Part shown: one piece after another, positions 927 to 20,556 of the stretch
Numbering within the stretch: the first letter of the stretch is position 1
Layout: each line of letters starts with the position of its first letter
From: a virus
Length of the DNA: 64,000 nucleotides
Reading direction: 5' to 3' (one strand)
IMG/VR virus record: IMGVR_UViG_3300025156_000001
Location: 4,757-68,756 of that record
Made by a program: the position numbers and the translations under genes
The notes under the pieces: model-generated
The model's input: the letters and a program-made list of their open reading frames with translations, nothing else
What the model was told of the DNA's origin: nothing
The model's database searches: none

Positions 927-1811
927 TTAATCACCCTTTTCGTCGCCATATCCATTTACGATACCATCTTCTACGAGTTTGCTTGAAAGCCTACCATGTT
1001 TATCGGTCATTACATTCTTGACCTTTATTATTTTTATATCATCTATCCATCTGGAGCAGTAGTCAGTCAGTCTAGTATCCCATTCCCCTTCTACTCCAAC
1101 TGAACATTGGAATAGTTTTGCTGGGGGTTGGTATAATGGGTTCAGGAATGATATATTTATCCTTTCGTCCTCTACACCTGCCATCAATTCCTTTACCATA
1201 TATTTCGCCATATCAAATCTAACCTTTTCGCCCCGCACATCTATACCGTCATCACCTACTAGTATACCTATATGATATACATCTGCATTTATATATAGTT
1301 TTTGTAATGCCCTATAATTGCCTATGTGCGCCTCTTTGAAGTTACCAAGTATAAGACCGTGGACAAGTTGGTCATCACCACTATCAATATAACCATCTAT
1401 ATTAAATGGTAATATTCTGGCCCTACTTATTACTTCCCCTATAATGGGAACCAATTCCAGGTCATATACTGGAACAAATTCGTTGTCCGTATCAAATTCT
1501 ACAAGTGCAAAACTCCTATCAACATCCATTACGTTACCGTATCTAAACATATAGGCACCATCTTTGCCCATTGCATACTGTTTAACGTAGTCATCAGCCG
1601 ATAAGAAATCCTCAAGTAGTTTGATATTTATACCAGTAACAAAAACCGTCCTGCCTTCACTATCCAGATTACTATCGGATATTATATTGTACCCATAACG
1701 CCCAGTGGATTGCACGGTCCCACTATATACACTCCCCCCATATTCAAATGCTACTTTATCACCAACTTTAAATGTCTGACCCAATTTAATCACCATCATT
1801 CTCAATTCCAT
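927..1811 (-). CDS. hypothetical protein with a possible N-terminal SH3/KOW-like barrel
   Basis: 294 aa ORF; FKVGDKV...GTV pattern near the N-terminus; true start may be a few codons downstream. Confidence 0.65.
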   Translation of the reverse strand: MELRMMVIKLGQTFKVGDKVAFEYGGSVYSGTVQSTGRYGYNIISDSNLDSEGRTVFVTGINIKLLEDFLSADDYVKQYAMGKDGAYMFRYGNVMDVDRSFALVEFDTDNEFVPVYDLELVPIIGEVISRARILPFNIDGYIDSGDDQLVHGLILGNFKEAHIGNYRALQKLYINADVYHIGILVGDDGIDVRGEKVRFDMAKYMVKELMAGVEDERINISFLNPLYQPPAKLFQCSVGVEGEWDTRLTDYCSRWIDDIKIIKVKNVMTDKHGRLSSKLVEDGIVNGYGDEKGD

Positions 1812-2583
1812 TAGGCCAAAGGGTAGATACCATATGGGATACCACTATCGGCAATGAATATTCACCGAGCGTAGGTGCTGTATTACACTCGATGACATAT
1901 ACCTCGCCGTCTTTAGTTTCCAGTATATCTACTGCCCCGAAGTCCAGCCCAAGTGCCTTAACACTATCTATTGCTAAATGTATCGCCCCTAAAGTTGATA
2001 GGGTTATATCCTTTATCTGTTCCTGTCTGTACCCAAATTCCATATTCCATCTGTAATTATCCGGCTCCTCAACCATAGGCTTCTTTTCATATACAATAAG
2101 GGCCTTATATGGGGTTGCAAACACCCTATACTCTCTTGCCTTATCTATATATGCCATATAATATCCGTCATCTTCGGTATTATGCGTAGCCTCCCCGAGG
2201 TTCTCTATATACTCAAAATCCCTACCATGAGAGTGGTTTTTACCCCTCCACACTATAGGCGCATTTCTACCCAGGAAGTGTAGTAATGCCCTGGGGTTCT
2301 TATGGAATTGTGGTACATGCCAGACTATATCGCCACTATCCCTCAACACCTCCAAAGTCCTATACTTATCGGTGCTTCTGGCGATAGCCGACCTACTGTT
2401 GAATACCACGCCATTTACTTTTATACCCTTCCTAGATGTACCCCATCTTATAATATTGGTATCTCTATTATTAGGTGGGTCCTCACTGAATGTGGTTGGC
2501 ACACCCAGGATTTCAAACTCATCCCTTATTGCCCTAGCGGTTGCACCACATTTCCTACTATACATGATATGTGTATCGAACAT
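1786..2583 (-). CDS. ATP-grasp peptide/amide ligase (RimK/YheCD-like, phage type)
   Basis: IIRWG, N..AI...DK, REYRVF, LGLDFGAVDI and VIECNTAP motifs; start moved to ATG 2583 after a GGAGTGG SD. Confidence 0.9.
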   Translation of the reverse strand: MFDTHIMYSRKCGATARAIRDEFEILGVPTTFSEDPPNNRDTNIIRWGTSRKGIKVNGVVFNSRSAIARSTDKYRTLEVLRDSGDIVWHVPQFHKNPRALLHFLGRNAPIVWRGKNHSHGRDFEYIENLGEATHNTEDDGYYMAYIDKAREYRVFATPYKALIVYEKKPMVEEPDNYRWNMEFGYRQEQIKDITLSTLGAIHLAIDSVKALGLDFGAVDILETKDGEVYVIECNTAPTLGEYSLPIVVSHMVSTLWPNGIENDGD

Positions 2584-2594
2584 TTTTACCACTC

Positions 2595-2912
2595 CTATGC
2601 AGTAACATACATACACTGCGTGGTATTTGGCCTTCTTTTGATACGTATATGGACATTAATGTCCCCATACATTTCGGTGAACCATCCCATTTTTCTTATG
2701 GGTTGTTCATGATATGTCATAGTGAAATTATCTTCATTAAACTCCACTACAACGAAAGGTACACCGTTTTCCTTCTCCATATATACCTTTGTGGCTAGTA
2801 TATCTACATCGGCTAGAGAGGCGGACGACATATACTTCCTTTTGGTGTTCTTTTCTATCCTCTTTTGCAACGTATCCATTATTTCCTTCATAGATTTTTG
2901 ATTGTTCTGCAT
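2595..2912 (-). CDS. hypothetical protein
   Basis: 105 aa ORF filling the gap between amidotransferase and ATP-grasp genes; GGGTGG SD. Confidence 0.65.
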   Translation of the reverse strand: MQNNQKSMKEIMDTLQKRIEKNTKRKYMSSASLADVDILATKVYMEKENGVPFVVVEFNEDNFTMTYHEQPIRKMGWFTEMYGDINVHIRIKRRPNTTQCMYVTA

Positions 2913-2914
2913 AT

Positions 2915-3778
2915 TTAACCACCCCTTCTATTACATGTAGCCAAAATTATCAAGTTTGTCAGTTGACCTTTCAAACTCTTCTTTACTAGGCTTGTGGAGG
3001 TCCTCGATAATTTTCCTGACCGCTTTTGGTAGGTCCTCCAACTTTCCCGAGGGTTTGATTTATATGTATACGTAGAAGTATATTTTACGGTCCTTTTAGC
3101 CTTTTCGTATTTATCAATATTCGCAAGTATTTCCCAATCAGATAGTAGTTCACTACCTGGGACGGCCTTGACAACATACTTATCTATTATGTCATCGGTA
3201 AACTCCGATGCTATAATAGTCATATCGCCTATTTGCGCCACATCTAAATCTCTTGTTGTAGATGTTTTATATACCTCTAATATACCATCTTTCCTCAATG
3301 ACAGAAACACACCAGTAAAATTGGTATTTATTGGTGCGCCCATATTCAATACACCAAACCCATATAGAGATACCAGGTATGATGTTGCTTCACTATCTGA
3401 TATTTCACCGCCTCTACGTATAACATATGGTATAAGTAGGGGTTTAAATATGGAAAGGTCTGATGTTGTTGTCCCATTATGACATAGTATCTGCTCTCCA
3501 TTATTAAACGGTTGGCAGTTTTCATCTGTCTTTGGTGCCACCGTTTTTATACGGGTATGGAATAAGAAGGCACCATTATCCCATTTGGTTTTGACAGCCT
3601 TTTCTACCAATTCCTCTACCGTTTTCTCAACGCCTTTGATGACCAACGGTTCACCTTTTACCCAACCACCTATACCATTTCCGTGCCCACCTTTAGCGTC
3701 CTCAAGATGCTTAAACAAGTCCACAAGAAACTCCTTATCCTTCTTCTTTACGCCTTTGACGAAAGCCAATCTACACAA
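2915..3778 (-). CDS. class II (Ntn) glutamine amidotransferase
   Basis: TTG start at 3778 after GGTGG gives M-C-R-L with the catalytic Cys at position 2; FHTR, NCQPF, HNG and SDSE motifs. Confidence 0.9.
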   Translation of the reverse strand: MCRLAFVKGVKKKDKEFLVDLFKHLEDAKGGHGNGIGGWVKGEPLVIKGVEKTVEELVEKAVKTKWDNGAFLFHTRIKTVAPKTDENCQPFNNGEQILCHNGTTTSDLSIFKPLLIPYVIRRGGEISDSEATSYLVSLYGFGVLNMGAPINTNFTGVFLSLRKDGILEVYKTSTTRDLDVAQIGDMTIIASEFTDDIIDKYVVKAVPGSELLSDWEILANIDKYEKAKRTVKYTSTYTYKSNPRESWRTYQKRSGKLSRTSTSLVKKSLKGQLTNLIILATCNRRGG

Positions 3779-3780
3779 TT

Positions 3781-4995
3781 TTACCACCACATTACAGGCA
3801 AGTATTTATCCGAATGTGAGGACATAATATCACTTATATCATTCACAATCGTGTTGATTGCCCCCTTTTCCTTTCTGATATGGATTGGTATACCAACAAC
3901 AACACCTATGGACGGGGACAATTTTTCGTATCTCCCCCAACGTCCATGCTTCACTGTATACCCTTTCCGTTTTAGGTAGGTAATGACATCCTTACAGATA
4001 GGCCCGCTATCTTCATCGGACCACACCCATAAGTCCCTACCATGTTTGCGACCAGACCCATATATATATATGTCGCCTATACCCTTCTTCTTGATACTGG
4101 TAACATCTATATCCAGGCCACTTTCTTTACCCATATATATGTTAACCGTATTGGACTTCGGCTTGATACCCCATGAAACGAATATGTTTCTTGTAGTATC
4201 CATAGCCGTTCTCCTTCTTGTAACGTTTGATGCGAAGTGTAGGTATCTTCCAACCTCACTATATCCATCCAACGTTGTAAACCAATTGAAGATTTCATTT
4301 ATGATATTATATACATCCGTATATACGGCTTTGTTATTCCCCGACCACCGTCTATTACCACGGTCGTTCCTTTCATTCCTAAATAGCGTATTACGTTCAT
4401 ATATATCTATCAATCTCCCTATTCTTTTATCGCCTTTAACTTTATCCCAATTACGAATCATAATCCACGCAATAGATAAGTATGCACCAGTCCATATTGG
4501 GCTTGACAACCAACTATATGGTGTTCTTGTTTCAAACCCGTGATGCTTCACCCTAAAGTCGAATGGCCCCCCATACTTCCCGACTTTAAGCCTATCTATA
4601 AAGTCTTCCCCACCTGTCATCCAGTTGAAGGAAAACAATACGGCACCAAGACTTCTTGCCTTTTCATCTATCTCGCTATCGGCGGATATATGTATATGCC
4701 CACCTATTGGATGTCCAGTTGGTGCACCACCACCACGTAGCCTTATAGAACTGCCCAGGAAATCCTGGATTTTACATATTGTATCCATAAGTTCCTGAAT
4801 ACACCCTCTCATATTTTCCATGTGTTCTTCAACACTTTCGGATGGGTCGGGCCTAAACTCTATAGGTACCTGCGCACTATCACTGCCGACAGATATACCA
4901 GTAAAGTAGTCTTGTCCAGTTACACGACTACCATCAACAAATAGTACAGCTTCGGGGTCAGACCCTATAAGAAAATCCTGTGTCATTGTTATCAC
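3781..4995 (-). CDS. phiEco32-like COOH-NH2 ligase (type 2) with C-terminal extension
   Basis: IGSDPE, IEFRPDPS, GGHIH and YGG..DFR.K.HGFETRT..SWL motifs. Confidence 0.85.
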   Translation of the reverse strand: MITMTQDFLIGSDPEAVLFVDGSRVTGQDYFTGISVGSDSAQVPIEFRPDPSESVEEHMENMRGCIQELMDTICKIQDFLGSSIRLRGGGAPTGHPIGGHIHISADSEIDEKARSLGAVLFSFNWMTGGEDFIDRLKVGKYGGPFDFRVKHHGFETRTPYSWLSSPIWTGAYLSIAWIMIRNWDKVKGDKRIGRLIDIYERNTLFRNERNDRGNRRWSGNNKAVYTDVYNIINEIFNWFTTLDGYSEVGRYLHFASNVTRRRTAMDTTRNIFVSWGIKPKSNTVNIYMGKESGLDIDVTSIKKKGIGDIYIYGSGRKHGRDLWVWSDEDSGPICKDVITYLKRKGYTVKHGRWGRYEKLSPSIGVVVGIPIHIRKEKGAINTIVNDISDIMSSHSDKYLPVMWW

Positions 4996-5177: not shown

Positions 5178-5355
5178 CTCTTATCAGCACATTAGCCTTT
5201 GTCTTTCTGCCGTGCTTTTCCACAGTAGCATATATATGGGCTTTAGCCAATATTTCAACGATGTCCTCTGCTATTTCGACATCCAGTTTACTGTATTTTA
5301 CCTTCATATACCTTTCTCCTTCGCGTTTTTTAGCCATTCTATATAGTCGGTGCAT
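5161..5355 (-). CDS. hypothetical protein
   Basis: Short ORF in operon context; true start probably the MKVKYS methionine overlapping the upstream stop. Confidence 0.5.
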   Translation of the reverse strand: MHRLYRMAKKREGERYMKVKYSKLDVEIAEDIVEILAKAHIYATVEKHGRKTKANVLIRGVFNE

Positions 5356-5693
5356 CTAATCATACTATATCTCGACGTTTTATAGTCCTGATAGAAGTTA
5401 AATGGGGCAAGTTTGTTGTTATCCAAAGTGGATGTAGTGGAAACATACATACCCAATGACGAGTAGAATTTGTGTACATCTTCCGATATTTTACCGGTTA
5501 TACTATACAATTCTACTACATATTCATCCGTGCCATATCCACTATGGTATTTAAGTCTCGGTATACCATTAGCATCAATCATAAGTGTATATTGCCCAAC
5601 ATATTTTATCTTTCTAAATGGTGCCAAATCACCCAGATAATATCTATGTAATGGGCCGCCCTCTCTCAACAACCCATACTCTCCTAGTATCAT
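5304..5693 (-). CDS. divergent gamma-glutamylcyclotransferase (GGCT/AIG2)-like protein
   Basis: YGLLREGGPLH resembles the GGCT YG[TS]LRxG motif; VELY resembles the xEVY strand; catalytic Glu not evident. Confidence 0.55.
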   Translation of the reverse strand: MILGEYGLLREGGPLHRYYLGDLAPFRKIKYVGQYTLMIDANGIPRLKYHSGYGTDEYVVELYSITGKISEDVHKFYSSLGMYVSTTSTLDNNKLAPFNFYQDYKTSRYSMIRCTDYIEWLKNAKEKGI

Positions 5694-5697
5694 TGTA

Positions 5698-6186
5698 TTA
5701 TACCCCCATAGTATGTTCCATTATACCAGTCCTAACCTCATCGATTGGTAAATCAAACCCGTACTCGTATATTATACCATTTCTTATATCTTTCTTCATC
5801 TCACTTATTAGCCATTTGTCATCCAACGTATCGAAGAACGCTTTGTACATATTTTCGTTCGTCCATAGGAATACCTTTGGTAGTTTGGTGTTCTTGACAC
5901 TACCCCTATCATTATTATCAATGATAAGCCTTTTTGAACTGCCATCTGAATTTACACGATTGCCACCATACATAGGAACGTAAGTCAAAAATATAGTAGG
6001 AATTACAATACCATTTTTATAGTTATGCAGTATATTATTTCCTTTATATCCCACATATACTGGTGTGCTATCACCTATAAATCGTAGTCTAAATACTATA
6101 TCTTTATCCATGCCAGTTATCTTTATATGTGATGGTAATATTACTGCATCACTTTTATCATCAAGCAAATCTATCGTTGTCTTCAT
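5698..6186 (-). CDS. PxxExxTGIxEH-family paralog (copy 9, separated from the main array)
   Basis: LPSHI near N-terminus, LPKVFL, C-terminal LPIDEVRTGIMEHT. Confidence 0.8.
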   Translation of the reverse strand: MKTTIDLLDDKSDAVILPSHIKITGMDKDIVFRLRFIGDSTPVYVGYKGNNILHNYKNGIVIPTIFLTYVPMYGGNRVNSDGSSKRLIIDNNDRGSVKNTKLPKVFLWTNENMYKAFFDTLDDKWLISEMKKDIRNGIIYEYGFDLPIDEVRTGIMEHTMGV

Positions 6187-6190
6187 ATAG

Positions 6191-6469
6191 TTACCTCCTA
6201 CTTTCTATATAGTCGAGGAACCTAATCACTATATTTATAGGGGTATAATTCTGGAATTTTACTGTACCATTTCTCCTGTTCCAATAGCACCAGTACTTAA
6301 TAGACTTATCCTTCTTAATTGGAACGGTAATAGTCATCTCTGTATATTCTTCTTCAATATGTATTCCCCCATCTCCTCCCCCACTATCTACTATAACCAT
6401 ATCATCTATTGTATCCAATTGGCTAGTTATTGCCTTATCGCGTATCTCTTTATCTCTTTTAGTGGGCAT
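6191..6469 (-). CDS. hypothetical protein
   Basis: 92 aa ORF with AGGTGA SD. Confidence 0.7.
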   Translation of the reverse strand: MPTKRDKEIRDKAITSQLDTIDDMVIVDSGGGDGGIHIEEEYTEMTITVPIKKDKSIKYWCYWNRRNGTVKFQNYTPINIVIRFLDYIESRR

Positions 6470-6478
6470 GAAATCACC

Positions 6479-7366
6479 TTATAACCATATACTGTAAAGG
6501 TCATTATCATTATTTTCTGTACGAAGGGCATAACTTATTAGTTCCTTACTCTTATCACTAAAGATATTCCATTTGGATATTAATTCCCCAAGTAGGGATG
6601 TGGCATAGTGCGGGTCCTCTACCGCTTTCACTATAACACTTTCGCCAATACTCTTAACTATACCAGGCCCGTTTTGGGACATATGGTAGATGGCATCTTC
6701 CACCAACGAATAAACAAGTCTAGTGTAGAGAGGGCTTTTAAGCCAGTAGTTTGATAGAGTGCGGTATTCTACCCCATAAGATGTCTTACGGAAACAACCG
6801 GCCCTACCGTATAATTTCCTCCGTTCCGTTGCATCCTTCGAGTTATCTATAACGGATGATACGACACCCAAGAATAGGTCTAATACCTTTATAAATTGCA
6901 TTGAATCGTAATGGTCCAAAAGGAATAAGGTATCGGGGTCATCATCAAATCCTATATGTATATGGCCGCCACAACTCCTAAAGGTTGGGAAATCTTCTGG
7001 ACTAGGTGGTTCGTTGGTCATACCTGTATATGCGGACAGGTCTGGAGAGCACCCAAACAGTTTTGCCTCTGGACTAGACACTTCCTCTATTGGGAAGTTT
7101 GCGGATGCCAGTACAACTGGTCTTATGCTATTATCAAGTCTATCATGTAATAGGTGGACCGTATCTCTTACGGCTTTAACCCATTCATTTTCATTATGGG
7201 CTGGCGGTGTGCCAAACTCGGCGCATACATTATCCCATTGTATCATCCCACCATTAGGTAGTTCAACGGGTTTTTCTTTTGTCCCATTTATATATGGTAT
7301 CGCAGATACCAATCTACCCCTTTTTGCGACAAATACTTCTGGGTCGCATCCTATTGTAAATTTCAT
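6479..7366 (-). CDS. phiEco32-like COOH-NH2 ligase (type 2)
   Basis: TIGCDPEVF, QWDNVCAEF, FGCSPD, FRSCGGHIH and RRKLYGRAGCFRKTSYGVEYRTLSNYW motifs, a textbook pattern. Confidence 0.93.
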   Translation of the reverse strand: MKFTIGCDPEVFVAKRGRLVSAIPYINGTKEKPVELPNGGMIQWDNVCAEFGTPPAHNENEWVKAVRDTVHLLHDRLDNSIRPVVLASANFPIEEVSSPEAKLFGCSPDLSAYTGMTNEPPSPEDFPTFRSCGGHIHIGFDDDPDTLFLLDHYDSMQFIKVLDLFLGVVSSVIDNSKDATERRKLYGRAGCFRKTSYGVEYRTLSNYWLKSPLYTRLVYSLVEDAIYHMSQNGPGIVKSIGESVIVKAVEDPHYATSLLGELISKWNIFSDKSKELISYALRTENNDNDLYSIWL

Positions 7367-7370
7367 TTAA

Positions 7371-7814
7371 TCACCCATTGTAATATATATCTGTGATGTG
7401 TTCGATTATACCAGTTTCAAGCTCGTTCTCCGGCATACCCCCCAGCGTAGTTATATGTAGTGTTCCCTTTAGGTAGTCAATCGTAAAGCCATTTGATTTA
7501 TATGAGGATGCCACCCTCCTTACATCATACGTATGAAACATGTTCCAGAATGTACGTGGTACTCTCATGTTATTTTCTGCGAAGGCATTTTCTAAAGCCC
7601 TACACGGGTGGGCTTCATGGCCCATATATTTTACGGCGATACGTGGCGACCCTGGTAGGTCTCTACGTATATACTCCCCATTTACAAGCGGGTATAATAT
7701 CATCCGCCCATCTGTTTTCTCTTTAACTATTTTTAAACCTGGTATCTCCGTATAGATAACATCAGGCAGAATATTAATATCCATGTGGTTCACCCCTATA
7801 ATCACTCTTGTCAT
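7371..7814 (-). CDS. PxxExxTGIxEH-family paralog (copy 8)
   Basis: LPDVI, MGHE, VPRTFW, MPENELETGIIEHI; likely start ATG 7784 after GGGGTGA. Confidence 0.85.
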   Translation of the reverse strand: MTRVIIGVNHMDINILPDVIYTEIPGLKIVKEKTDGRMILYPLVNGEYIRRDLPGSPRIAVKYMGHEAHPCRALENAFAENNMRVPRTFWNMFHTYDVRRVASSYKSNGFTIDYLKGTLHITTLGGMPENELETGIIEHITDIYYNG

Positions 7815-8205
7815 ACGGTATATCTGTATGCTCGTGTATTCCAGAATTCATCTCATCTTTTGGGATTTTGTTATTAAACACCGCATACAATCTCTCCTCC
7901 AGAAACTTCCTGTTGAAACGCGGCGCCCTATATGACAATGCGCACATCTTTGCACATTCCGTATTGTTAATATAGTAGAATGCTCCTGGTACATACCCAT
8001 CCTTACCAAATAACGTTTCTATGGTTTTTGAACCTCTAGCCTGATGTCCACCATAGTGTATTGCTATTGGGATACCCCACTCCCTACGTATAATTATACT
8101 ATTTACACATGGTAAAAGTAGTGTTTTTCCATAAACCTCACGTTTTTCTATTGTAACGTTAGGTATCAACGTTGGGATAACACTCGGTAGCTTCGATAAA
8201 TCCAT
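7774..8205 (-). CDS. PxxExxTGIxEH-family paralog (copy 7)
   Basis: LPSVI, GGHQARGS, VPGAFY, IPKDEMNSGIHEHT. Confidence 0.85.
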   Translation of the reverse strand: MDLSKLPSVIPTLIPNVTIEKREVYGKTLLLPCVNSIIIRREWGIPIAIHYGGHQARGSKTIETLFGKDGYVPGAFYYINNTECAKMCALSYRAPRFNRKFLEERLYAVFNNKIPKDEMNSGIHEHTDIPYDKSDYRGEPHGY

Positions 8206-8223
8206 CTATACACCCCAATACCT

Positions 8224-8634
8224 TTAAGTTATATGCTCATATATACCGGTTTCGATTTCATTATTTGGTAGGTTACTATCAAGTATAATTAGCGCGCCGG
8301 CGGAAGATAAAAATGATATAGCTTCAGTATAATTCTTTGTATAACTCCTTAATGTGGTAGTATTTTTAGATATCCATCGAAATACGTGTGGTACCCGCAC
8401 CCCTGTTACAGCTATATGTTTTTGCCAGTTGTTAATATCACTCCCACCTGAATTGCTAACAAAAGTCAGGAAGAAATGGTTCTCCGGTACCCCGTGTCCC
8501 TCAAAATAGATACGTTTTCCATTCTTATCTCTTGCTACATATATATCGTAACCTGCCTGTTGTTCAAGAAAGAACGTAACTTCAGGTATTATACTTTTAA
8601 ACCTGATATGGGTAGGCAATTTTGTGTCTATCAT
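8224..8634 (-). CDS. PxxExxTGIxEH-family paralog (copy 6)
   Basis: LPTHI, VPHVFR, LPNNEIETGIYEHIT-stop; AGGTGA SD. Confidence 0.85.
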   Translation of the reverse strand: MIDTKLPTHIRFKSIIPEVTFFLEQQAGYDIYVARDKNGKRIYFEGHGVPENHFFLTFVSNSGGSDINNWQKHIAVTGVRVPHVFRWISKNTTTLRSYTKNYTEAISFLSSAGALIILDSNLPNNEIETGIYEHIT

Positions 8635-8639
8635 CTATA

Positions 8640-9044
8640 TCACCTATCTACGTGCTCCCATATACCAGTAGCGGATTCCTCTTCTGGTATAGTAATCTTA
8701 CCAAACAGTTTTATTATTCGTGATAACAAATCGTCATCGGAGTACGAACGGCTAGCTTCCTCCGCGCTATTGCCACCATATATACCCCAAAATATTTCCG
8801 GTAAATCTCCCCTATCGTGGAACCGATGGGATATAATGCTACCTCTCGCCCGATGTCCCTCTGTATGGATAGCAAGTGGCACATTATCATAGAGGCACCT
8901 TTCACCGTCCACATACACAATTAAAAGTTCGTGCCCATACATTGTTTCTTTATGTAGCTCCACGCCAGGCATCTTTGATGATGCTATTATATCTGGATAC
9001 CCATCTAAATACAATATACCACATCCATTATTTGTATTGAACAC
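8640..9044 (-). CDS. PxxExxTGIxEH-family paralog (copy 5)
   Basis: YPDII, PGVELHKETMYG, EGHRARGS, LPEIFW, IPEEESATGIWEHV; start uncertain. Confidence 0.85.
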   Translation of the reverse strand: MFNTNNGCGILYLDGYPDIIASSKMPGVELHKETMYGHELLIVYVDGERCLYDNVPLAIHTEGHRARGSIISHRFHDRGDLPEIFWGIYGGNSAEEASRSYSDDDLLSRIIKLFGKITIPEEESATGIWEHVDR

Positions 9045-9456
9045 GACAATTTATATGTTCGTATATACCTGTATTCTTTTCGTTTGTTGGCAATTCATAC
9101 GCATCGAAATATTTTTGTAGTGAATCAACTAGCCTATTTATCCACTTCTCCTCTAATGCCCCATCCAAATCTGCTTTTGACCTAACGTACCAAAACATTC
9201 GAGGCGGTAATATACCCTCTTTTTTATATTTTTTGTAAAAATCTATTGGGCCCATATGCCCATATGGACATATAATTATGCTATTACCGGCATGAATACA
9301 CGGTTTGTCCATATAGTAAACACGTAGGACCTTGGCCCCATACATTGTTTCTTTATGTAGTTCTAGCCCAGGTATATGTTTCGATACAAGTATATCCGGT
9401 ACTTTGTCTGCCCACATCATATTAAACACCATTGTATTCCGCGATATAATCGCCAC
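9028..9456 (-). CDS. PxxExxTGIxEH-family paralog (copy 4)
   Basis: VPDIL, PGLELHKETMYG, YGHM, PPRMFW, LPTNEKNTGIYEHI; true start probably MMWADK. Confidence 0.85.
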   Translation of the reverse strand: MAIISRNTMVFNMMWADKVPDILVSKHIPGLELHKETMYGAKVLRVYYMDKPCIHAGNSIIICPYGHMGPIDFYKKYKKEGILPPRMFWYVRSKADLDGALEEKWINRLVDSLQKYFDAYELPTNEKNTGIYEHINCRVQYK

Positions 9457-9787
9457 TTTTTATTATGGGATAGGTTTTATTTATCGCCCTCTCTCTTGCC
9501 CATACCCATATATCGGCTTTACCGACAGGTGTTTCTATCTCCTCTTTGTGGTATCCAGCACCCAACTCCATAATATCTATAGAGTTGTATGTGCTATCCG
9601 GCACATCATATACCTCTATCTTGACATCCCTCATATTGTTGTCGTTTACAAGTGCGGGATATGAATATGGTAGTACCATTATATAAGGTAATGGCACAAA
9701 CCCACTGAAAAGTGGCTTACCTATAGACTTCCTATAATTATATCCACCCTCTCGGAGGGTGCCGTACACCGCTATTCTCTTTACCAT
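9422..9787 (-). CDS. gamma-glutamylcyclotransferase (GGCT/AIG2-like)
   Basis: AVYGTLREG, YPAL, IEVYDV and D..E..Y motifs; AGGTGA SD. Confidence 0.92.
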   Translation of the reverse strand: MVKRIAVYGTLREGGYNYRKSIGKPLFSGFVPLPYIMVLPYSYPALVNDNNMRDVKIEVYDVPDSTYNSIDIMELGAGYHKEEIETPVGKADIWVWARERAINKTYPIIKSGDYIAEYNGV

Positions 9788-9798
9788 TTATATCACCT

Positions 9799-10194
9799 TT
9801 ACTCTATATGCTCATATATCATGGTTTCAATCTCTTTTTGGGGTAGTTCGAATGTACCCATATACATTTTAATTTTATCCATAGTGTAGGAAAAAAGACA
9901 CTCAAGTGCTTCATTTATATCTCCAACATAATAGAATATAGCAGGTATACTAATTGGTGCGCCACAGCCACTTGAATAAAACCTTTTAACAGCTTCAGTT
10001 GGCCCAGAATGTCCATCGAAATTTATACATAATGGATTTCCAGTTCTAACACTAGATTGTGGTGAACCGTCTAGGAATACTCTTAATAATGGCTGGTTCT
10101 GTATAAGTTGTTTCCTTGCAGATAACCTATGGCATGTGCCTTTTATAAATAAGATTTCAGGTATGTCTTTCACGGTACCACTCCATATGCTCAT
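9799..10194 (-). CDS. PxxExxTGIxEH-family paralog (copy 3)
   Basis: IPEIL, DGHS, IPAIFY, LPQKEIETMIYEHIE-stop. Confidence 0.85.
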   Translation of the reverse strand: MSIWSGTVKDIPEILFIKGTCHRLSARKQLIQNQPLLRVFLDGSPQSSVRTGNPLCINFDGHSGPTEAVKRFYSSGCGAPISIPAIFYYVGDINEALECLFSYTMDKIKMYMGTFELPQKEIETMIYEHIE

Positions 10195-10615
10195 GAATAC
10201 CAGTGTTTTCCTCTTCTACCGGTAAATTATATAATTGAAGATAGTCTTTCATAACCCTTTTTGAATACGAGCGCCTGCATAGTATGGCGTCTCCACCATC
10301 AAATACGTAGTAAAATATATATGGTATACTCTTCTTCCTGTTCAAATAGTATGTGAAAACATCCGGTGTTACATGGTCGTGCCCATTACTAGATAGCGCA
10401 ATGCATAATGGCCTACCGGTTTCACTGCTATTTTGTGGTACACCATTGAGGTACACCCTATATACATCATGCCCACAGATATTTTCTAATACACCTATTA
10501 ATTCCTCCCCATCTATGCGGACAATTTCTGGCAACTCAAATTTAACGATACTATAACCCCCATTGTTATTCGATGTGCTCATATATACCTGATACCATTT
10601 CTTCATATGGCACAT
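10157..10615 (-). CDS. PxxExxTGIxEH-family paralog (copy 2)
   Basis: LPEIV, NGHD, IPYIFY, LPVEEENTGIHEHM; true start is downstream of the ORF-track start. Confidence 0.85.
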   Translation of the reverse strand: MCHMKKWYQVYMSTSNNNGGYSIVKFELPEIVRIDGEELIGVLENICGHDVYRVYLNGVPQNSSETGRPLCIALSSNGHDHVTPDVFTYYLNRKKSIPYIFYYVFDGGDAILCRRSYSKRVMKDYLQLYNLPVEEENTGIHEHMEWYRERHT

Positions 10616-10910
10616 TTTGTGGTATATATTTTTTGATATTGTGCATTAAATACGTACTGTTGCAAACTAACGCATCCCCTTTATCATAGACATAAAAGAA
10701 TATCCTAGGTGGGTCTTGTTCTATGGAACGGTATGCTATAAACCCCCCATACCCACAATTATCGTGCCCGTTAAACTTTAGGCACAACGGCATTGGGTAT
10801 GATGCGAGTTCGCCGTCTACATATACCACATAAACGTATACCCCATATAGTTTTTCGAGCCTGGCTATTATCCTATTCTTAACCAACTCCAAACACAATG
10901 GCAATTCCAT
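10566..10910 (-). CDS. PxxExxTGIxEH-family paralog (copy 1)
   Basis: LPLCL, NGHD, PPRIFF, VPYEEMVSGIYEHIE-stop; GGAGG SD. Confidence 0.85.
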   Translation of the reverse strand: MELPLCLELVKNRIIARLEKLYGVYVYVVYVDGELASYPMPLCLKFNGHDNCGYGGFIAYRSIEQDPPRIFFYVYDKGDALVCNSTYLMHNIKKYIPQNVPYEEMVSGIYEHIE

Positions 10911-10963
10911 ATCATACCTCCATATCCTACTATCAATATTTGTGTTCCACTTGCCATTTCAAT

Positions 10964-11053
10964 TCATATGAATATATCCCTGTATTGTTCTCGTATTCCT
11001 TTTATATAGTTATATTCTCTATGGCCGTATAGCCTATGGTAGTCTGGATGCAT
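10964..11053 (-). CDS. 29 aa microprotein (not in ORF track)
   Basis: MHPDYHRLYGHREYNYIKGIREQYRDIFI, preceded by AGGTGA SD. Confidence 0.5.
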   Translation of the reverse strand: MHPDYHRLYGHREYNYIKGIREQYRDIFI

Positions 11054-11061
11054 ATTATCAC

Positions 11062-11175
11062 CTATTCTTCTTTCTTTTCATATAGTAGACATTGATGAGA
11101 GTGTGGGGATACAACATAAGTACTCGATAGCATACATGTATGACTACCGTAGTGCTTACAATCTATACATGGCAT
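11062..11175 (-). CDS. 37 aa Cys-rich microprotein (not in ORF track)
   Basis: MPCIDCKHYGSHTCMLSSTYVVSPHSHQCLLYEKKEE; GAAGTGA SD-like site. Confidence 0.6.
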   Translation of the reverse strand: MPCIDCKHYGSHTCMLSSTYVVSPHSHQCLLYEKKEE

Positions 11176-11188
11176 ATTATCACTTCAT

Positions 11189-11920
11189 TTAGTATTTATA
11201 TACATCGTCGATTACATCCTTCGCTATATTATGCGCCATTCTACATATTTTAAATAGATTTTTAAATGTCTTTGCGTTCATAGGCAGAGACCTATACTCA
11301 AAGCCGTGGTCCTTAAGCCTCCAGAACCCCTTCTGCCTATAAGAGTTTAGTGGCTCATCTTGTAGGAACGACTTTATATATGGGTGTTTCTCAAACCTCC
11401 TAACAAATTCTTCTATATCTCTTTTTGCCCATGAAAAGACAAAGTTTACCTCGGTGTTACCATCGATAAGCGTGGTCTTGTTTGCGGAGATGTGTATATG
11501 TAGCCCACCCCCCCTATATATATGCCCATCTATATCCCTATGACGCATCTTATTGCCATATATATTACCACCAACTATCTCCTCTTTATAATTGGAATAG
11601 GAGGTAGCGCACCGTAGTACATTTTCCCAATATTCCTCTGTGGTAAAGGGGTATTCCTTTGTGGACATATGATACCCCTTATAGTCCCCTCCCAAATGCC
11701 TAAACCTATCCACCACATCATTATACTTCTCTACAAACGAACCGAAAGCAACACCAGGAGTACCGTAATCACTTCTTATCTCCGCTAGGAGGTCGAAGTT
11801 ATCCCTCGGTATACTATATGGTGCCGGACACGGTTTGCCTTTTTTATCCAGTATGAGGAACTCACCCTCAATACCTATATCTATCCTATTCGGCTTCATG
11901 CCAAGTACACTTGTAGACAT
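11189..11920 (-). CDS. third, divergent COOH-NH2 ligase (phiEco32 type 2-like)
   Basis: IGIEGEF, D...EIRS, GGGLHIH and YRQKGFWRLKDHGFEYRSL; start placed at ATG 11920 after GAAGGTG to remove the overlap with the upstream gene. Confidence 0.8.
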   Translation of the reverse strand: MSTSVLGMKPNRIDIGIEGEFLILDKKGKPCPAPYSIPRDNFDLLAEIRSDYGTPGVAFGSFVEKYNDVVDRFRHLGGDYKGYHMSTKEYPFTTEEYWENVLRCATSYSNYKEEIVGGNIYGNKMRHRDIDGHIYRGGGLHIHISANKTTLIDGNTEVNFVFSWAKRDIEEFVRRFEKHPYIKSFLQDEPLNSYRQKGFWRLKDHGFEYRSLPMNAKTFKNLFKICRMAHNIAKDVIDDVYKY

Positions 11921-11936
11921 ATTATACACCTTCTGT

Positions 11937-12455
11937 TTATTCCGTAGGAATAATATCTTTGTAATTGTAATCGTAACGGTATCTATTTCTATATCGTTGG
12001 CTCTCATCCCACTCAACGGTATACCAATGTGTACCCCCGTCCCAATTATACCCATTGTGTTCCGTTTTGGGGACCTCCACCACCGTACCTAATTGCTTCA
12101 CTCCATTCTTATCGCGGTCTTGGTCCCACCATTCCCATGAGGGTCCCCTCTTTACCCTATCTCCAACCTTTAGAGTTGGTATATTCCTATTAAGAACAAC
12201 CCCAATCAGGGGTTCTATAAGGTAACGTCTGTAAGAGATACCCTCCTTATTAATCGCATCATTTTCCACCTTAATATACCATTCTACAAATTCTACCCCC
12301 TTCTTTGTTGGTGGTACATTATCATCTATCCACCTTCTTTGTACATTGGAGCACGGATTATACCTCTTGAGAAACGAAGCGAATTTTTTGTAGTATGTAC
12401 CATTATACTTCTCCAATTCTTTAACCTTATATCTATTTAACTTGTGCATATACAT
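11937..12455 (-). CDS. protein with C-terminal MIB/HERC2-like domain
   Basis: VGDRVKRGPSWEWWDQD...GTVVEV...VEWD...NRYRY...D matches the MIB/HERC2 consensus GxRVxRGPDWxWxxQD...GTV...VxWD...NxYR...D. Confidence 0.75.
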   Translation of the reverse strand: MYMHKLNRYKVKELEKYNGTYYKKFASFLKRYNPCSNVQRRWIDDNVPPTKKGVEFVEWYIKVENDAINKEGISYRRYLIEPLIGVVLNRNIPTLKVGDRVKRGPSWEWWDQDRDKNGVKQLGTVVEVPKTEHNGYNWDGGTHWYTVEWDESQRYRNRYRYDYNYKDIIPTE

Positions 12456-12469
12456 CTATATGCCCCCAA

Positions 12470-12739
12470 CTACTTACCCTCTTCTCTAGCCTTTCTCTTC
12501 ATGCCCTGGTAATAACAGTATATCTCAAACTCATCCAGGAAACCCCTAACAGGCTTTATGTTTAGATACCCGAGTTTCCTCAAGTAGTTTGTACCGAGCC
12601 CCGCCCTGTCGGGGTGTGGCCCTTTAACTTTATCCTTATTGGCAATATGCCTCTCATTGGCAGTTGCAACACCCTTCAACCGCCTCAATCTAACCCTATC
12701 CTTTACCTTTTTCTTATTACTGTATACCATCTTAATCAC
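12470..12739 (-). CDS. basic hypothetical protein
   Basis: 89 aa ORF in operon context; likely start at MVYSNK. Confidence 0.6.
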   Translation of the reverse strand: MIKMVYSNKKKVKDRVRLRRLKGVATANERHIANKDKVKGPHPDRAGLGTNYLRKLGYLNIKPVRGFLDEFEIYCYYQGMKRKAREEGK

Positions 12740-12888: not shown

Positions 12889-13419
12889 TTACCATTCCCC
12901 ATCTATTTGTTTTTGCCCAAATAACAATGGGAATACCACTTCCGCAGATACAGGTGAGTAATCCCATACATCTACACCAACATTAACTACATTCTCTATG
13001 TTCCTAAACAGGTGGTGGACATGCCCACATATAAATAACTTTTTCTTTAACACGCCCGCCACTGCGGGGTCGTGTATAAGGGTTATATCATACCCGTTTA
13101 CCTCTAGTTTTAAAGATGTATGAACGGACTCGAAGCCCATATCTACATAATCGAATGGTTTTAAGTTATCGTGATTGCCAAGTATAAGCACCTTCCTACC
13201 CTTTAGGGAACGTATTTTCTTCTCCAGCATATCTTTACTAACCTCATACCACGAGGCTATATCGCCGAGGAAATATACGGTATCGCCCCCTTTCACTATA
13301 CTATTATAATTTCTAGTTATAATAGCATTCATCTCTTTTACCGACCTAAATGGCCGACTTTCATACTTTAATATATTGGTATGCCAAAAGTGTTGGTCTG
13401 ACGTGAAGTATATAGCCAT
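12889..13419 (-). CDS. calcineurin-like metallophosphoesterase
   Basis: TSDQHF.H, LGD, GNHD and GHVH motifs; NVGVD. Confidence 0.92.
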   Translation of the reverse strand: MAIYFTSDQHFWHTNILKYESRPFRSVKEMNAIITRNYNSIVKGGDTVYFLGDIASWYEVSKDMLEKKIRSLKGRKVLILGNHDNLKPFDYVDMGFESVHTSLKLEVNGYDITLIHDPAVAGVLKKKLFICGHVHHLFRNIENVVNVGVDVWDYSPVSAEVVFPLLFGQKQIDGEW

Positions 13420-19234: not shown

Positions 19235-19729
19235 CTACGTTTGTCTATATCTCAACCAAGCAGTAACAACGTTCGGGGAAGAACTCCCACTAGCCGCCTG
19301 CGTTCTAAAATTCAAGTAATCACCATTGCTCAATTCGACCGGTTGTGAAAGTTCATTGACAGCAGATTGCCCAGTAGAGACCGCCACATTAGCACTGGAG
19401 CCCTGGGACACACCATTTATTACGGCTTGGACAGTTGCTGTACCACTACCTATACGAAGGGACATAGCCACAATATGACACTCCCACCCCGTAGGTACGT
19501 ATATGGCCAACCCCCCGTCTGAGGGTGTATTTGCACCATTACCGAATGCCCACTCATAAGCGTCTGCTGAAAGTGTGGAATTCTCCTCTGCCCATATTGG
19601 CACAATATACTCCGATATACCACCCCCACCCCCACCATACGATATTTCTTTGGAATCGTCAACTCTACTATAATACATCTTATCATCGGAGTCGTCATAT
19701 ATAACTCTACTTATCCCCATAGTTTTCAC
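19235..19729 (-). CDS. hypothetical beta-rich protein (possible minor virion or surface protein)
   Basis: 164 aa; Gly linker followed by a beta-sandwich-like sequence. Confidence 0.65.
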   Translation of the reverse strand: MKTMGISRVIYDDSDDKMYYSRVDDSKEISYGGGGGGISEYIVPIWAEENSTLSADAYEWAFGNGANTPSDGGLAIYVPTGWECHIVAMSLRIGSGTATVQAVINGVSQGSSANVAVSTGQSAVNELSQPVELSNGDYLNFRTQAASGSSSPNVVTAWLRYRQT

Positions 19730-20526: not shown

Positions 20527-20556
20527 TTTTCTCACCTATATACATAATAGACGTCT

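What the first reader, a model, noticed from the sequence alone, without database searches (positions are those of the whole stretch)
5698..10910. Nine-member array of unknown paralogs with an invariant P-x-x-E-x-x-[TS]-G-I-x-E-H tail, embedded in a peptide-ligase cluster
Seen: nine ORFs (10566, 10157, 9799, 9028, 8640, 8224, 7774, 7371, 5698) are very divergent overall but share an N-terminal hydrophobic-Pro motif, an internal GH (7 of 9 at the equivalent place), a P-x-x-F motif (9 of 9) and a fixed-spacing near-terminal motif: VPYEEMVSGIYEHI, LPVEEENTGIHEHM, LPQKEIETMIYEHI, LPTNEKNTGIYEHI, IPEEESATGIWEHV, LPNNEIETGIYEHI, IPKDEMNSGIHEHT, MPENELETGIIEHI, LPIDEVRTGIMEHT. Codons vary synonymously (GAA/GAG, CAC/CAT, CCN), so selection acts on the peptide. 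The array is interleaved with a GGCT and flanked by COOH-NH2 ligases. I do not recognise the family. Inference: variable body plus constant Glu-containing tail fits (a) substrates or carriers modified on Glu by the ligases, by analogy with LysW or Pup; (b) interchangeable specificity adaptors docking on a common enzyme through the tail; or (c) a diversified His/Glu metal-binding effector family. Caveat: 2-14 residues follow EH, so the motif is not a strict C-terminus.
Basis: partly seen in the sequence, partly recalled or inferred. Interest (0 to 1): 0.9.

Follow-up and report, generated by a model that had tools for sequence, protein, structure and literature searches.

The report
Nine orphan viral paralogs, shared tail
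An uncultured marine/hydrothermal-vent virus carries nine very different copies of a small protein of no known family that all keep the same short Glu/His-containing tail, set among amide-bond-forming enzymes whose target has never been found, so these proteins are candidate partners of those enzymes, but no link is shown yet.

Summary
Nine minus-strand genes (114-162 aa) form one family. Bodies average 22% pairwise identity; the 12-residue tail P-x-x-E-x-x-[TS]-[GM]-I-x-E-H averages 56% and is the most conserved stretch.

Conservation acts on the peptide. Codons vary synonymously. In a second strain, conserved motif positions carry only silent changes while the flanks carry replacements.

The family is an orphan: 11 proteins among 1.84 billion representatives, nine from this virus and two on tiny contigs. 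There is no Pfam, PHROG, PADLOC, PDB or fold match. Two AlphaFold models give a confident alpha/beta body and a poorly placed tail.

The neighbours are confirmed: two clear PF14395 ligases plus a divergent third, an ATP-grasp protein, a GGACT and an MIB/HERC2-like protein.

Best reading (0.35): variable target-binding bodies tethered by a constant docking tail to a shared partner, probably a cassette enzyme. Substrate/carrier, cassette-independent host-takeover and metal-site readings remain open. The single co-fold gave no verdict. The ligase family is common in phages that lack these paralogs.

An earlier scan note reports a different small-paralog array in another phage amidoligase cassette.

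The parts
10566..10910 (-). Paralog P1, 114 aa, tail VPYEEMVSGIYEHI + IE
   Evidence: ORF; alignment; AF2 model with pLDDT 81.2
10157..10582 (-). Paralog P2, 141 aa from ATG 10582 (frame open from 10615), tail LPVEEENTGIHEHM + 8 more residues
   Evidence: (P0006)
9799..10173 (-). Paralog P3, 124 aa from GTG 10173 (ATG 10194 also possible), tail LPQKEIETMIYEHI (M in place of G)
   Evidence: (P0008)
9422..9787 (-). Gamma-glutamylamine cyclotransferase-like gene (GGACT/AIG2) between P3 and P4; overlaps the start of P4 by 11 nt
   Evidence: Pfam PF06094 5.5e-13, 50 bits against a cutoff of 22.8; phrog_2520 3e-12
9028..9432 (-). Paralog P4, 134 aa, tail LPTNEKNTGIYEHI + NCRVQYK
   Evidence: (P0005); AF2 model with pLDDT 77.7
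8640..9044 (-). Paralog P5, 134 aa (GTG start), tail IPEEESATGIWEHV + DR
8224..8634 (-). Paralog P6, 136 aa, tail LPNNEIETGIYEHI + T; lacks the body His (GS)
7774..8205 (-). Paralog P7, 143 aa, tail IPKDEMNSGIHEHT followed by the longest extension (17 residues after EH)
7371..7784 (-). Paralog P8, 137 aa from ATG 7784 (frame open from 7814), tail MPENELETGIIEHI + TDIYYNG; its stop lies 4 nt before the ligase 2 start
   Evidence: (P0009)
6479..7366 (-). COOH-NH2 ligase 2 (phiEco32 type), embedded between P8 and P9
   Evidence: PF14395 2.7e-13; phrog_3815 1.3e-56; 1611 homologs at E<=1e-10
6191..6469 (-). Small ORF of 92 aa with no family, between ligase 2 and P9; changes fast between strains
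5698..6186 (-). Paralog P9, 162 aa, the most divergent, tail LPIDEVRTGIMEHT + MGV; lacks the body His (GN)
5304..5693 (-). Possible second GGCT-like gene (weak)
   Evidence: Only a YG.LREGG N-terminal match to the GGACT, BLASTP E 0.009; no Pfam hit at E<=1; no PDB sequence hit
3781..4995 (-). COOH-NH2 ligase 1, 404 aa
   Evidence: PF14395 1.8e-18
2915..3790 (-). Possible class II glutamine amidotransferase-like protein (weak)
   Evidence: No Pfam or PHROG hit; best PDB sequence hit is a class-II GATase domain protein, 3mdn, at E 0.17
1786..2616 (-). ATP-grasp ligase, RimK-like
   Evidence: phrog_2599 2.1e-22; four Pfam ATP-grasp families at 1.8e-4 to 5.8e-3, all below their cutoffs
11189..12055 (-). 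Divergent third COOH-NH2 ligase-like gene just upstream of the array (true start probably near 11920)
   Evidence: BLASTP to ligase 1 E 0.001; no Pfam hit
11937..12455 (-). Protein with an MIB/HERC2-like domain
   Evidence: PF06701 7.3e-8, 32.6 bits against a cutoff of 33.5; MIB1 4xi6 E 3.3e-4

Best explanation
The nine genes are an old, lineage-specific expansion of a new small alpha/beta protein.

Proposed mechanism: each copy has its own fast-changing body that recognises a different target, host or viral. All copies share one flexible C-terminal short linear motif, [LIVM]-P-x-x-E-x-x-[TS]-G-I-x-E-H. That motif tethers every copy to the same partner.

I take the partner most likely to be a protein of the surrounding amidoligase cassette (a COOH-NH2 ligase, or the MIB/HERC2-like protein). 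On that view the paralogs act as interchangeable adaptors that bring different clients to one ATP-dependent amide-forming machine.

Shown:
- one family of nine members;
- orphan status;
- a well-folded body and a poorly placed tail in the models;
- purifying selection on the tail peptide against rapid change elsewhere;
- tight co-operonic packing with the enzymes.

Inferred:
- that the tail is a docking motif;
- that the partner is a cassette enzyme;
- that the bodies bind targets.

Odds: constant docking tail plus variable body of some kind, about 0.5. Partner in the cassette, about 0.35.
For: 1. Conservation is concentrated in the tail.
- Tail mean pairwise identity is 56% against 22% for the bodies, and the tail is the top 12-column window.
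- Across all 11 known members, the only invariant polar residues are the tail E, E and H.

2. Selection is on the peptide.
- 118 of 253 same-residue codon pairs are synonymous variants.
- The distance from the motif to the next start codon varies from 7 to 58 nt, so no fixed DNA signal fits.

3. Strain comparison, using contigs of run X2 (the 40 best-supported of 95 differences were shown).
- In P8, the strictly conserved positions T124 and H129, and the variable residue I127 between them, change only synonymously. The one replacement inside the motif, E119K, falls on an x position.
- Seven of 11 changes in residues 113-132 are replacements.
- Ligases 2 and 3 show 9 of 9 synonymous changes. 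Ligases 0N/9S against paralogs 9N/5S gives Fisher p = 0.0026.
- Four strain-variant proteins carry 19 substitutions in 453 body residues and 0 in 48 motif residues. The post-EH extension of P2 is rewritten.

4. Structure models.
- Two AF2 models give the body pLDDT 80-95 and the tail blocks 37-60.
- This is as expected of a motif that folds on a partner.

5. Surfaces differ between copies: pI ranges from 4.65 to 8.7.

6. The duplications are old. Tree branches are 0.7-2.9 changes per site, and the outside pair falls within the group that holds P1-P5, P7 and P8, on a midpoint-rooted tree. All nine frames are nevertheless intact.

7. Gene packing ties the array to the enzymes.
- The P8 stop lies 4 nt before ligase 2.
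- P3 ends 11 nt before the GGACT.
- The GGACT overlaps P4.
- P9 ends 4 nt before the next gene.
- All lie on one strand.
Against: - No binding has been shown.
- The ligase family is very common without these paralogs. Ligase 2 has matches in 313 phage records and 1611 proteins at E<=1e-10.
- The paralog family appears in 0 phage records when P6 is used as a tblastn query, and in only 11 of 1.84 billion representatives. The enzymes clearly work without it.
- Tight packing on one strand is the rule for phage early and middle genes, so it is weak evidence of shared function.
- The two outside homologs have no readable context.
- The strain test on the motif alone is not significant: P(0 of 19 substitutions in the motif) = 0.15.
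- The low tail pLDDT may only reflect an alignment of 9-11 rows.
Confidence: 0.35

Rival explanations
1. Host-takeover or anti-defence family unrelated to the ligases. The paralogs sit in the cassette only because the array grew there. The constant tail is a shared address or warhead. It could bind a conserved host hub, or act as a degradation or packaging signal, in the way T4 internal proteins share only a capsid targeting sequence.
For: - Bodies, flanks and neighbouring small genes change quickly between strains while the ligases do not. That is the pattern of host-facing genes.
- The ligase family is widespread without the paralogs.
Against: - G[ILVM]xEH occurs in no other open frame of 60 or more codons in the 68.8-kb genome: 8 of 8 hits are paralogs. 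No head or scaffold protein shares a cleavage-type site.
- The motif is C-terminal, unlike the T4 signal.
- The bodies are homologous, unlike T4 internal proteins.
- No PADLOC hit in 0 of 11 members.
- The interleaving with the GGACT and ligase 2 would be coincidence.
Confidence: 0.3
2. Substrates or carriers. An invariant tail Glu is activated by a COOH-NH2 ligase or the ATP-grasp enzyme and joined to an amine (ammonia, an amino acid or a Lys). This may follow trimming of the variable extension after EH. It would be analogous to LysW, Pup or tubulin-tail glutamylation.
For: - Two invariant Glu residues lie in a flexible tail.
- The extension after EH is of variable length and unconstrained: 2-17 residues, and rewritten in a strain variant. 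This resembles precursors that are trimmed to expose a reactive end.
- Carboxylate-amine ligases are encoded alongside.
Against: - The family fails the defining features of LysW and Pup (see the membership test).
- The Thr/Ser is R or K in the 2 of 2 outside homologs.
- There is no invariant Lys.
- GGACT chemistry needs a free alpha-amino group on the gamma-glutamyl residue (recalled), so it cannot reverse a modification on an internal Glu.
- There is no obvious reason for nine diverged carriers.
- The enzymes occur widely without such proteins.
Confidence: 0.15
3. Small His/Glu metal-binding proteins or enzymes. The tail E...E-H folds back onto the body (GH, P-x-x-F) to form a metal or active site.
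For: - E, E and H are invariant, and a body GH is present in 9 of 11 members.
- A weak beta-bridge is predicted between residues just before and after the motif.
Against: - The body His is absent in P6 and P9.
- No other polar residue is invariant.
- The tail is the least confident part of both models.
- No fold or sequence match to any metalloprotein: best VIA Z is 2.3 and 2.9, and Foldseek gives nothing at E<=0.001.
Confidence: 0.1
4. The tail is conserved as DNA (a palindrome, promoter or recombination site) or kept alike by gene conversion, not as a peptide.
For: - The codons for I-Y-E-H-I spell a 14-bp palindrome, TATATGAGCATATA. It is perfect in P3 and P6 and within 2 mismatches in P1 and P4.
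- GGT is used for the motif Gly in 7 of 8 copies, against 42% genome-wide (p = 0.012).
- An earlier scan note on another cassette reported a half-DNA, half-peptide tail (e1-3428874).
Against: - Five of nine copies lack the palindrome yet keep E and H with both codons of each.
- Nucleotide identity in the tail is only 62.5%.
- ATA makes up 70% of Ile codons, so its use here is ordinary.
- Spacing to the next gene varies from 7 to 58 nt.
- Strain differences at motif codons are silent.
- The outside homologs keep the peptide.
Confidence: 0.02

Closest known systems
phiEco32/PaP3-type phage amidoligase cassette (PF14395 COOH-NH2 ligases with ATP-grasp, GATase-like and GGCT-like genes; Iyer et al. 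2009, Mol Biosyst, which is not held here and is known to me by recall and through papers that cite it)
   Same: - The surrounding enzymes: two PF14395 ligases above cutoff, an ATP-grasp protein and a GGACT.
- The product or target is still unknown. Citing papers only repeat the predictions of cell-wall modification or secondary metabolites (passages).
   Different: - Nine copies of an orphan small protein are interleaved with the enzymes.
- tblastn with P6 alone found no relative in the 50,697 phage records, and the profile found none beyond 11 proteins among 1.84 billion representatives, whereas 313 phage records hold a ligase 2 relative.
T4 internal proteins sharing a capsid targeting sequence
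   Same: A set of otherwise very different small proteins keeps only one short terminal motif, and the set evolves in an arms race (PMC3012670, section 6 passage).
   Different: - The T4 signal is N-terminal and the T4 proteins are unrelated to each other. Here the motif is C-terminal and the bodies are homologous.
- No head gene shares the motif.
- Presence in virions is untested.
LysW / amino-group carrier proteins with LysX-type ATP-grasp ligases (recalled)
   Same: A small protein with an acidic tail Glu, encoded near a RimK-family ATP-grasp ligase.
   Different: - LysW is about 54 aa, a Zn ribbon, and uses its C-terminal Glu.
- Here the bodies are 100-150 aa with no Zn ribbon, and the Glu is 3-18 residues from the end.
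Pup and the PafA/Dop carboxylate-amine ligases (recalled)
   Same: - A glutamine-synthetase-fold ligase acts on a Glu at the flexible end of a small protein.
- The end is first processed.
   Different: Pup is disordered and ends in GG[QE]. These proteins have a confident fold and no such end.
Poxvirus ankyrin/PRANC (F-box-like) adaptor families (recalled)
   Same: Many paralogs with variable target-binding bodies and one constant C-terminal element that docks on a shared ligase machine.
   Different: They belong to a eukaryotic ubiquitin system, with no sequence or fold relation. The resemblance is an analogy of logic only.
Small SH3-like paralog array in another phage amidoligase cassette (earlier scan note e1-3428874; AI note, unchecked)
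   Same: Several small paralogs with a shared tail are interleaved with the same kind of enzymes.
   Different: - It is a different protein family in a different virus.
- That tail was said to be half a DNA palindrome. Here the DNA explanation fails.

Membership tests
One family of nine paralogs (this orphan family) | Bodies are homologous without the tail | tested here: met
   Leave-one-out body-only HMM finds 9 of 11 at E 9e-12 to 5.6e-21. With filters off, P6 reaches 3.8e-4 and P9 0.014; P6 against P9 bodies gives BLASTP 3.3e-5.
One family of nine paralogs (this orphan family) | Tail motif E-x-x-x-[GM]-I-x-E-H near the C-terminus | tested here: met
   Present in 11 of 11 members: E, I, E and H are invariant and G holds in 10 of 11.
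PF14395 COOH-NH2 ligase type 2 (neighbours) | Pfam score above the gathering cutoff | tested here: met
   3781-4995 scores 67.1 bits and 6479-7366 scores 50.2 bits against a cutoff of 25. 11189-12055 has no Pfam hit and only BLASTP E 0.001 to ligase 1, so that gene is inconclusive.
PF06094 GGACT/AIG2 (neighbour 9422-9787) | Pfam score above the gathering cutoff | tested here: met
   50 bits against 22.8. The second candidate, 5304-5693, has no Pfam hit at E<=1.
PF06701 MIB_HERC2 (neighbour 11937-12455) | Pfam score above the gathering cutoff | tested here: inconclusive
   32.6 bits against a cutoff of 33.5; MIB1 chain 4xi6 at E 3.3e-4.
LysW / amino-group carrier protein | Reactive Glu is the C-terminal residue (EDWGE-type end; recalled) | tested here: not met
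   2 to 17 residues follow the conserved E-H in 9 of 9 copies.
LysW / amino-group carrier protein | Small Zn-ribbon body of about 54 aa (recalled) | tested here: not met
   Bodies are 99-146 aa. Models show a beta-sheet plus helices. Cys count is 0-4 and not conserved. No Pfam family at a meaningful E-value in 9 of 9 (the one row returned was Nef at E 0.18).
Pup (prokaryotic ubiquitin-like protein) | Disordered protein of about 64 aa ending in GG[QE] (recalled) | tested here: not met
   Confident folded body with pLDDT 80-95; no GG[QE] end; no Pfam hit.
Graspetide (ATP-grasp-modified peptide) precursors | Conserved Thr/Ser or Lys plus Asp/Glu in a core next to a dedicated ATP-grasp enzyme (recalled) | tested here: inconclusive
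   T/S holds in 9 of 9 here, but the position is R in one outside homolog and K in the other. The only ATP-grasp gene lies about 3 kb beyond the last paralog and scores below the Pfam cutoffs. The chemistry is not testable here.
T4-type internal proteins with capsid targeting sequence | N-terminal signal shared with head-core proteins and cut by the prohead protease; protein present in virions | not testable with these tools
   The motif is C-terminal and occurs in no other frame of the genome (8 of 8 hits are paralogs). Virion content cannot be read from sequence.

The most novel reading that the evidence does not exclude
The array is the missing protein half of the phage amidoligase cassette: a viral protein-tail ligation system. 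The variable extension after E-H is trimmed or ignored. An invariant tail Glu is activated by a COOH-NH2 ligase and joined to an amine. The nine folded modules then serve as alternative tags, carriers or covalently loaded adaptors. This would be a prokaryotic-virus counterpart of Pup/ubiquitin-like or LysW-like chemistry with a built-in choice of nine specificities.
Probability: 0.13. Interest if true: 0.9.

Novelty: new variant of a known kind. Interest (0 to 1): 0.55.

Why it matters
- Phage amidoligase cassettes (COOH-NH2 ligases, ATP-grasp, GGCT-like enzymes) were predicted in 2009 and occur in hundreds of phages. In the searches I ran I found no paper that tests what they make or modify.
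- This virus places nine copies of a new small protein inside the cassette. They share one short Glu/His tail that is frozen by selection. That gives concrete, cheap candidates for the enzymes' protein partners.
- The candidates can be tested by co-expression and mass spectrometry, or by peptide pull-downs.
- If the link is real, it would show how a virus couples one enzyme set to many targets.
- If the link is not real, the family is still a clean example of a new fold-level orphan with a terminal linear motif under strong selection.
- Limits: one uncultured virus lineage, an unknown host, and no evidence of binding.

Tried and rejected
**Library and fold searches that found nothing for the family**
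- Pfam: 0 of 9, apart from a Nef row at E 0.18.
- PHROGs: 0 of 9.
- PADLOC: 0 of 11.
- PDB sequence profile: best E 1.6.
- Foldseek against PDB and BFVD: nothing at E<=0.001 for either model.
- VIA-align wide: best Z 2.3 and 2.9.
- ESM Atlas: no usable hit by features, TM <= 0.41.
- tblastn of P6 against 50,697 phage records: no match.
- Megablast of the region against phages: no match.

**Searches for relatives with genomic context**
- The word-index search found only 4 of the window's own proteins.
- The exhaustive profile search found 11 proteins, 2 of them outside this virus.
- Viral contigs with P0010, P0011 and A6, genome contigs with P0134 and A2, and metagenome contigs with A2 all returned no relative.
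- Ligase 1 and P0040 gave nothing in viral contigs.
- Ligase 3 gave one weak 5.4-kb locus, L011, with no paralog array.
- orf92 and the MIB/HERC2-like protein have no tblastn match in phages. Nor does the 633-aa ORF at 21512-23413.

**Co-fold**
- Ligase 2 (30-row alignment) with P8 (11-row alignment): no verdict, score 0.00 in two runs, controls not run.
- This counts neither for nor against binding.

**Expression**
- No RNA holder was listed among the 3 runs found.
- Bins 9638-10119 (P3) are almost uncovered in X2. No conclusion is drawn from that.

**Ideas rejected or left unsupported**
- Segmental duplication of a ligase-paralog-GGCT unit. The ligases are only remotely alike (E 3.7, 0.001 and 4e-5), and the two GGCT-like genes share only a 19-residue match.
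- Sigma-70 promoter scan: 33 found against 33.3 expected.
- DNA-level explanation of the tail: see the rival explanations.
- The Slicky01 ligase neighbourhood (L009) has paralogous ORFs only 8-10 kb away from the ligase, and none with an EH-type tail.

**Host**
- Not determined.

**Papers**
- I saw passages only of PMC11706807, PMC10580990, PMC4431377, PMC2938197, PMC11318856 and PMC3012670.
- Iyer et al. 2009 is not held and is cited from recall and from those papers.
- No supplements were opened.

Full report
**What is there**

The window is bases 4757-68756 of a 68,756-bp virus record with direct terminal repeats. From about 12,700 down to 1, every gene lies on the minus strand with almost no gaps.

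Nine ORFs in this stretch end at 10566, 10157, 9799, 9028, 8640, 8224, 7774, 7371 and 5698. A profile of the nine finds nine places in the whole genome and no tenth.

In the nine-sequence alignment the invariant columns are the N-terminal Pro, a Gly (followed by His in 7 of 9), P-x-x-F, and P, E, I, E, H of the tail.

Three details need correction:
- 2 to 17 residues follow EH, not 2 to 14.
- P3 has M where the others have G.
- Several frames probably start at internal start codons.

**Is it one family, and is it more than chance?**

I cut the tail off and left each member out in turn. A body-only HMM still finds 9 of 11 members at E 9e-12 to 5.6e-21. The two failures are P6 and P9, the copies without the body His. 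With filters off, P6 reaches 3.8e-4 and P9 only 0.014. P6 and P9 bodies match each other at 3.3e-5, and they pair in the tree with support 89/97.

So the bodies are homologous, with P9 at the edge of detection. Bodies average 22% pairwise identity (range 14-40%). The 12-residue tail averages 56% and is the best-conserved window of the alignment, against a median window of 22%.

**Peptide or DNA?**

- In the tail, 118 of 253 codon pairs for the same residue use different codons. Both Glu codons, both His codons and three Pro codons occur, and nucleotide identity is 62.5%.
- ATA makes up 70% of Ile codons in this genome, so ATA in 8 of 9 copies is unremarkable. GGT for the Gly in 7 of 8 is mildly enriched (p = 0.012). 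The distance from the motif to the next start codon ranges from 7 to 58 nt.
- The codons for I-Y-E-H-I happen to form a 14-bp palindrome. It is perfect in only 2 of 9 copies and within two mismatches in 2 more.
- No inverted repeat marks the tails.

A DNA signal or gene conversion therefore does not explain the motif.

**Strain comparison**

Contigs of three public runs were laid on 5300-12500:
- X1, a marine metagenome that may be the source of this DNA.
- X2, from a hydrothermal-vent study, carrying a variant about 97% alike.
- X3, from a second hydrothermal-vent study, carrying identical pieces.

Of 95 differences in X2, the 40 best supported were listed, and I translated them:
- Ligase 2: 6 of 6 synonymous.
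- Ligase 3: 3 of 3 synonymous.
- P8, residues 113-132: 7 replacements and 4 silent changes. Within the motif, T124 and H129 (conserved positions) and I127 (a variable x position) change silently. The one replacement inside the motif, E119K, also falls on a variable x position.
- P4: 2 replacements and 1 silent change.
- GGACT: 8 replacements and 2 silent changes.
- orf92: 6 replacements and 2 silent changes, plus a compensated frameshift.

Ligases (0N/9S) against paralogs (9N/5S) differ at Fisher p = 0.0026.

Four variant proteins, each with a 2014-bp longest contig on record (P0134, P0137, P0135, P0007), carry 19 substitutions in 453 body residues and none in 48 motif residues. The extension after EH in P2 is rewritten and shortened. 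On its own, the zero count in the motif is not significant (P = 0.15).

Overall the motif is frozen, its flanks and the bodies move fast, and the ligases are under ordinary purifying selection.

**Orphan status**

- A profile search that read 1.84 billion representative proteins found 11 members. Nine are this virus's paralogs or their strain forms. Two are outside proteins, P0010 and P0011, that keep E-x-x-x-G-I-x-E-H but have R or K in place of T/S.
- Both outside proteins sit on contigs of 697 and 534 bp, so their neighbours cannot be read.
- All 11 members are 114-162 aa, so the exhaustive search shows no fused form.
- Pfam, PHROGs, PADLOC, PDB sequences, the ESM Atlas and tblastn against 50,697 phage records give nothing.

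**Structure**

- The AF2 model of P1 (9-row alignment) has mean pLDDT 81.2.
- The AF2 model of P4 (11-row alignment) has mean pLDDT 77.7.
- Both show a four- to five-stranded sheet followed by helices, with body blocks at pLDDT 80-95 and the tail at 37-60.
- Neither model matches a solved or predicted viral fold. Foldseek gives nothing at E<=0.001, and the best VIA Z is 2.3 and 2.9.
- With only 9-11 rows, the low tail confidence is suggestive, not proof, of a free tail.
- pI ranges from 4.65 to 8.7, so there is no common charge character such as a DNA mimic would have.

**Surroundings**

Confirmed:
- PF14395 ligases at 3781-4995 and 6479-7366.
- A GGACT at 9422-9787.
- A RimK-like ATP-grasp protein at 1786-2616.

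Weaker:
- A third ligase-like gene at 11189-12055.
- An MIB/HERC2-like domain at 11937-12455, one bit under the Pfam cutoff, with MIB1 at E 3.3e-4.
- A GATase-like gene at 2915-3790, whose best PDB hit is at E 0.17.
- A second GGCT-like gene at 5304-5693.

Packing is tight. P8 ends 4 nt before ligase 2, the GGACT overlaps P4, and P9 ends 4 nt before the next gene.

The three ligases are only remote paralogs of each other, so the array did not arise by recent copying of a ligase-paralog unit. Ligase 2 has relatives in 313 phage records and 1611 proteins at E<=1e-10. None of these comes with this paralog family. The enzymes therefore do not need it.

**How it most likely works**

The pattern has four elements:
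- deep, retained duplication (branch lengths 0.7-2.9 changes per site, with the outside pair falling within the group that holds P1-P5, P7 and P8);
- differing surfaces;
- fast-moving bodies;
- a frozen, flexible terminal motif that holds every invariant polar residue.

This is the pattern of interchangeable recognition modules tied to one partner by a short linear motif. I put about 0.5 on that logic. I put 0.35 on the partner being a cassette protein, which would make the paralogs adaptors for the amide-forming enzymes.

The substrate/carrier reading (0.15) is weakened in three ways:
- It fails the LysW and Pup features.
- The T/S position is not conserved outside this virus.
- GGACT-type enzymes need a free alpha-amino group on the gamma-glutamyl residue (recalled), which an internal Glu lacks.

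A cassette-independent host-takeover family, with the tail as a common address, remains a strong rival (0.3). T-even internal proteins are the model: diverse defence proteins sharing only a capsid targeting sequence (PMC3012670, passage). However, the motif occurs in no other frame of this genome.

A His/Glu metal site gets 0.1, and a DNA-level artefact gets 0.02.

**Novelty**

The cassette is a known, untested kind. Papers that mention it only repeat the 2009 predictions (passages). My searches found no experimental test.

The embedded family is new at sequence level and, as far as the models go, at fold level. I used it as a lead and tested its DNA-palindrome idea here, with a negative result. 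If such arrays recur, that would strengthen a functional link. I could not check this.

I file the finding as a new variant of a known kind, with interest 0.55.

Noticed in passing
window 10964-11053 and 11062-11175 (minus strand): The only apparent gap in the cluster, between ligase 3 and P1, holds two mini-ORFs of 29 and 37 aa. The 37-aa ORF is Cys/His-rich. Each is preceded by the same GTGATAAT-ATG ribosome-site spacing as the real genes.
   Followed up: no
window 8640-10910: Strain variants of P1, P2, P4 and P5 each have a 2014-bp longest contig on record. P1 to P5 span 2271 bp in the window. If all four variants sit on one contig, that strain must lack about 260 bp or more here, possibly P3. 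P3 is also nearly uncovered in run X2. The contig could not be fetched.
   Followed up: partly
window 9422-9787 and 6191-6469: In run X2 the GGACT (8 replacements, 2 silent) and orf92 (6 replacements, 2 silent, plus a 1-base insertion and a 1-base deletion 4 bases apart) change as fast as the paralogs. The ligases show only silent changes.
   Followed up: partly
window 8230-8243 and 9805-9818: The codons for I-Y-E-H-I form the perfect 14-bp palindrome TATATGAGCATATA in P6 and P3, and a near-perfect one in P4 and P1. Codon bias probably accounts for it, but a role in recombination between copies is not excluded.
   Followed up: partly
whole window: Contigs from hydrothermal-vent metagenomes of two further studies match this virus, at 100% and about 97% identity. 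Most genes are preceded by GGTGA(T)-type ribosome sites, and there are no tRNA genes.
   Followed up: partly
window 12889-13419; 50539-51510; 52613-53689; 54692-57055; 58944-59804; 19726-20535: Other annotations: calcineurin-like phosphoesterase (2.8e-6), N6/N4 DNA methylase (1e-38), weak prim-pol (6.5e-4), family B DNA polymerase (phrog_262 6.9e-60), PD-(D/E)XK nuclease (2.9e-20), and a protein with bacterial TSP3 repeats (2.1e-7). The 633-aa ORF at 21512-23413 has no Pfam, PHROG or phage tblastn match.
   Followed up: no
L009 (Pseudoalteromonas phage Slicky01) 1914-4226: Three paralogous ORFs (55-77% identity) lie 8-10 kb upstream of that phage's COOH-NH2 ligase. They are not adjacent to it and have no EH-type tail.
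   Followed up: no
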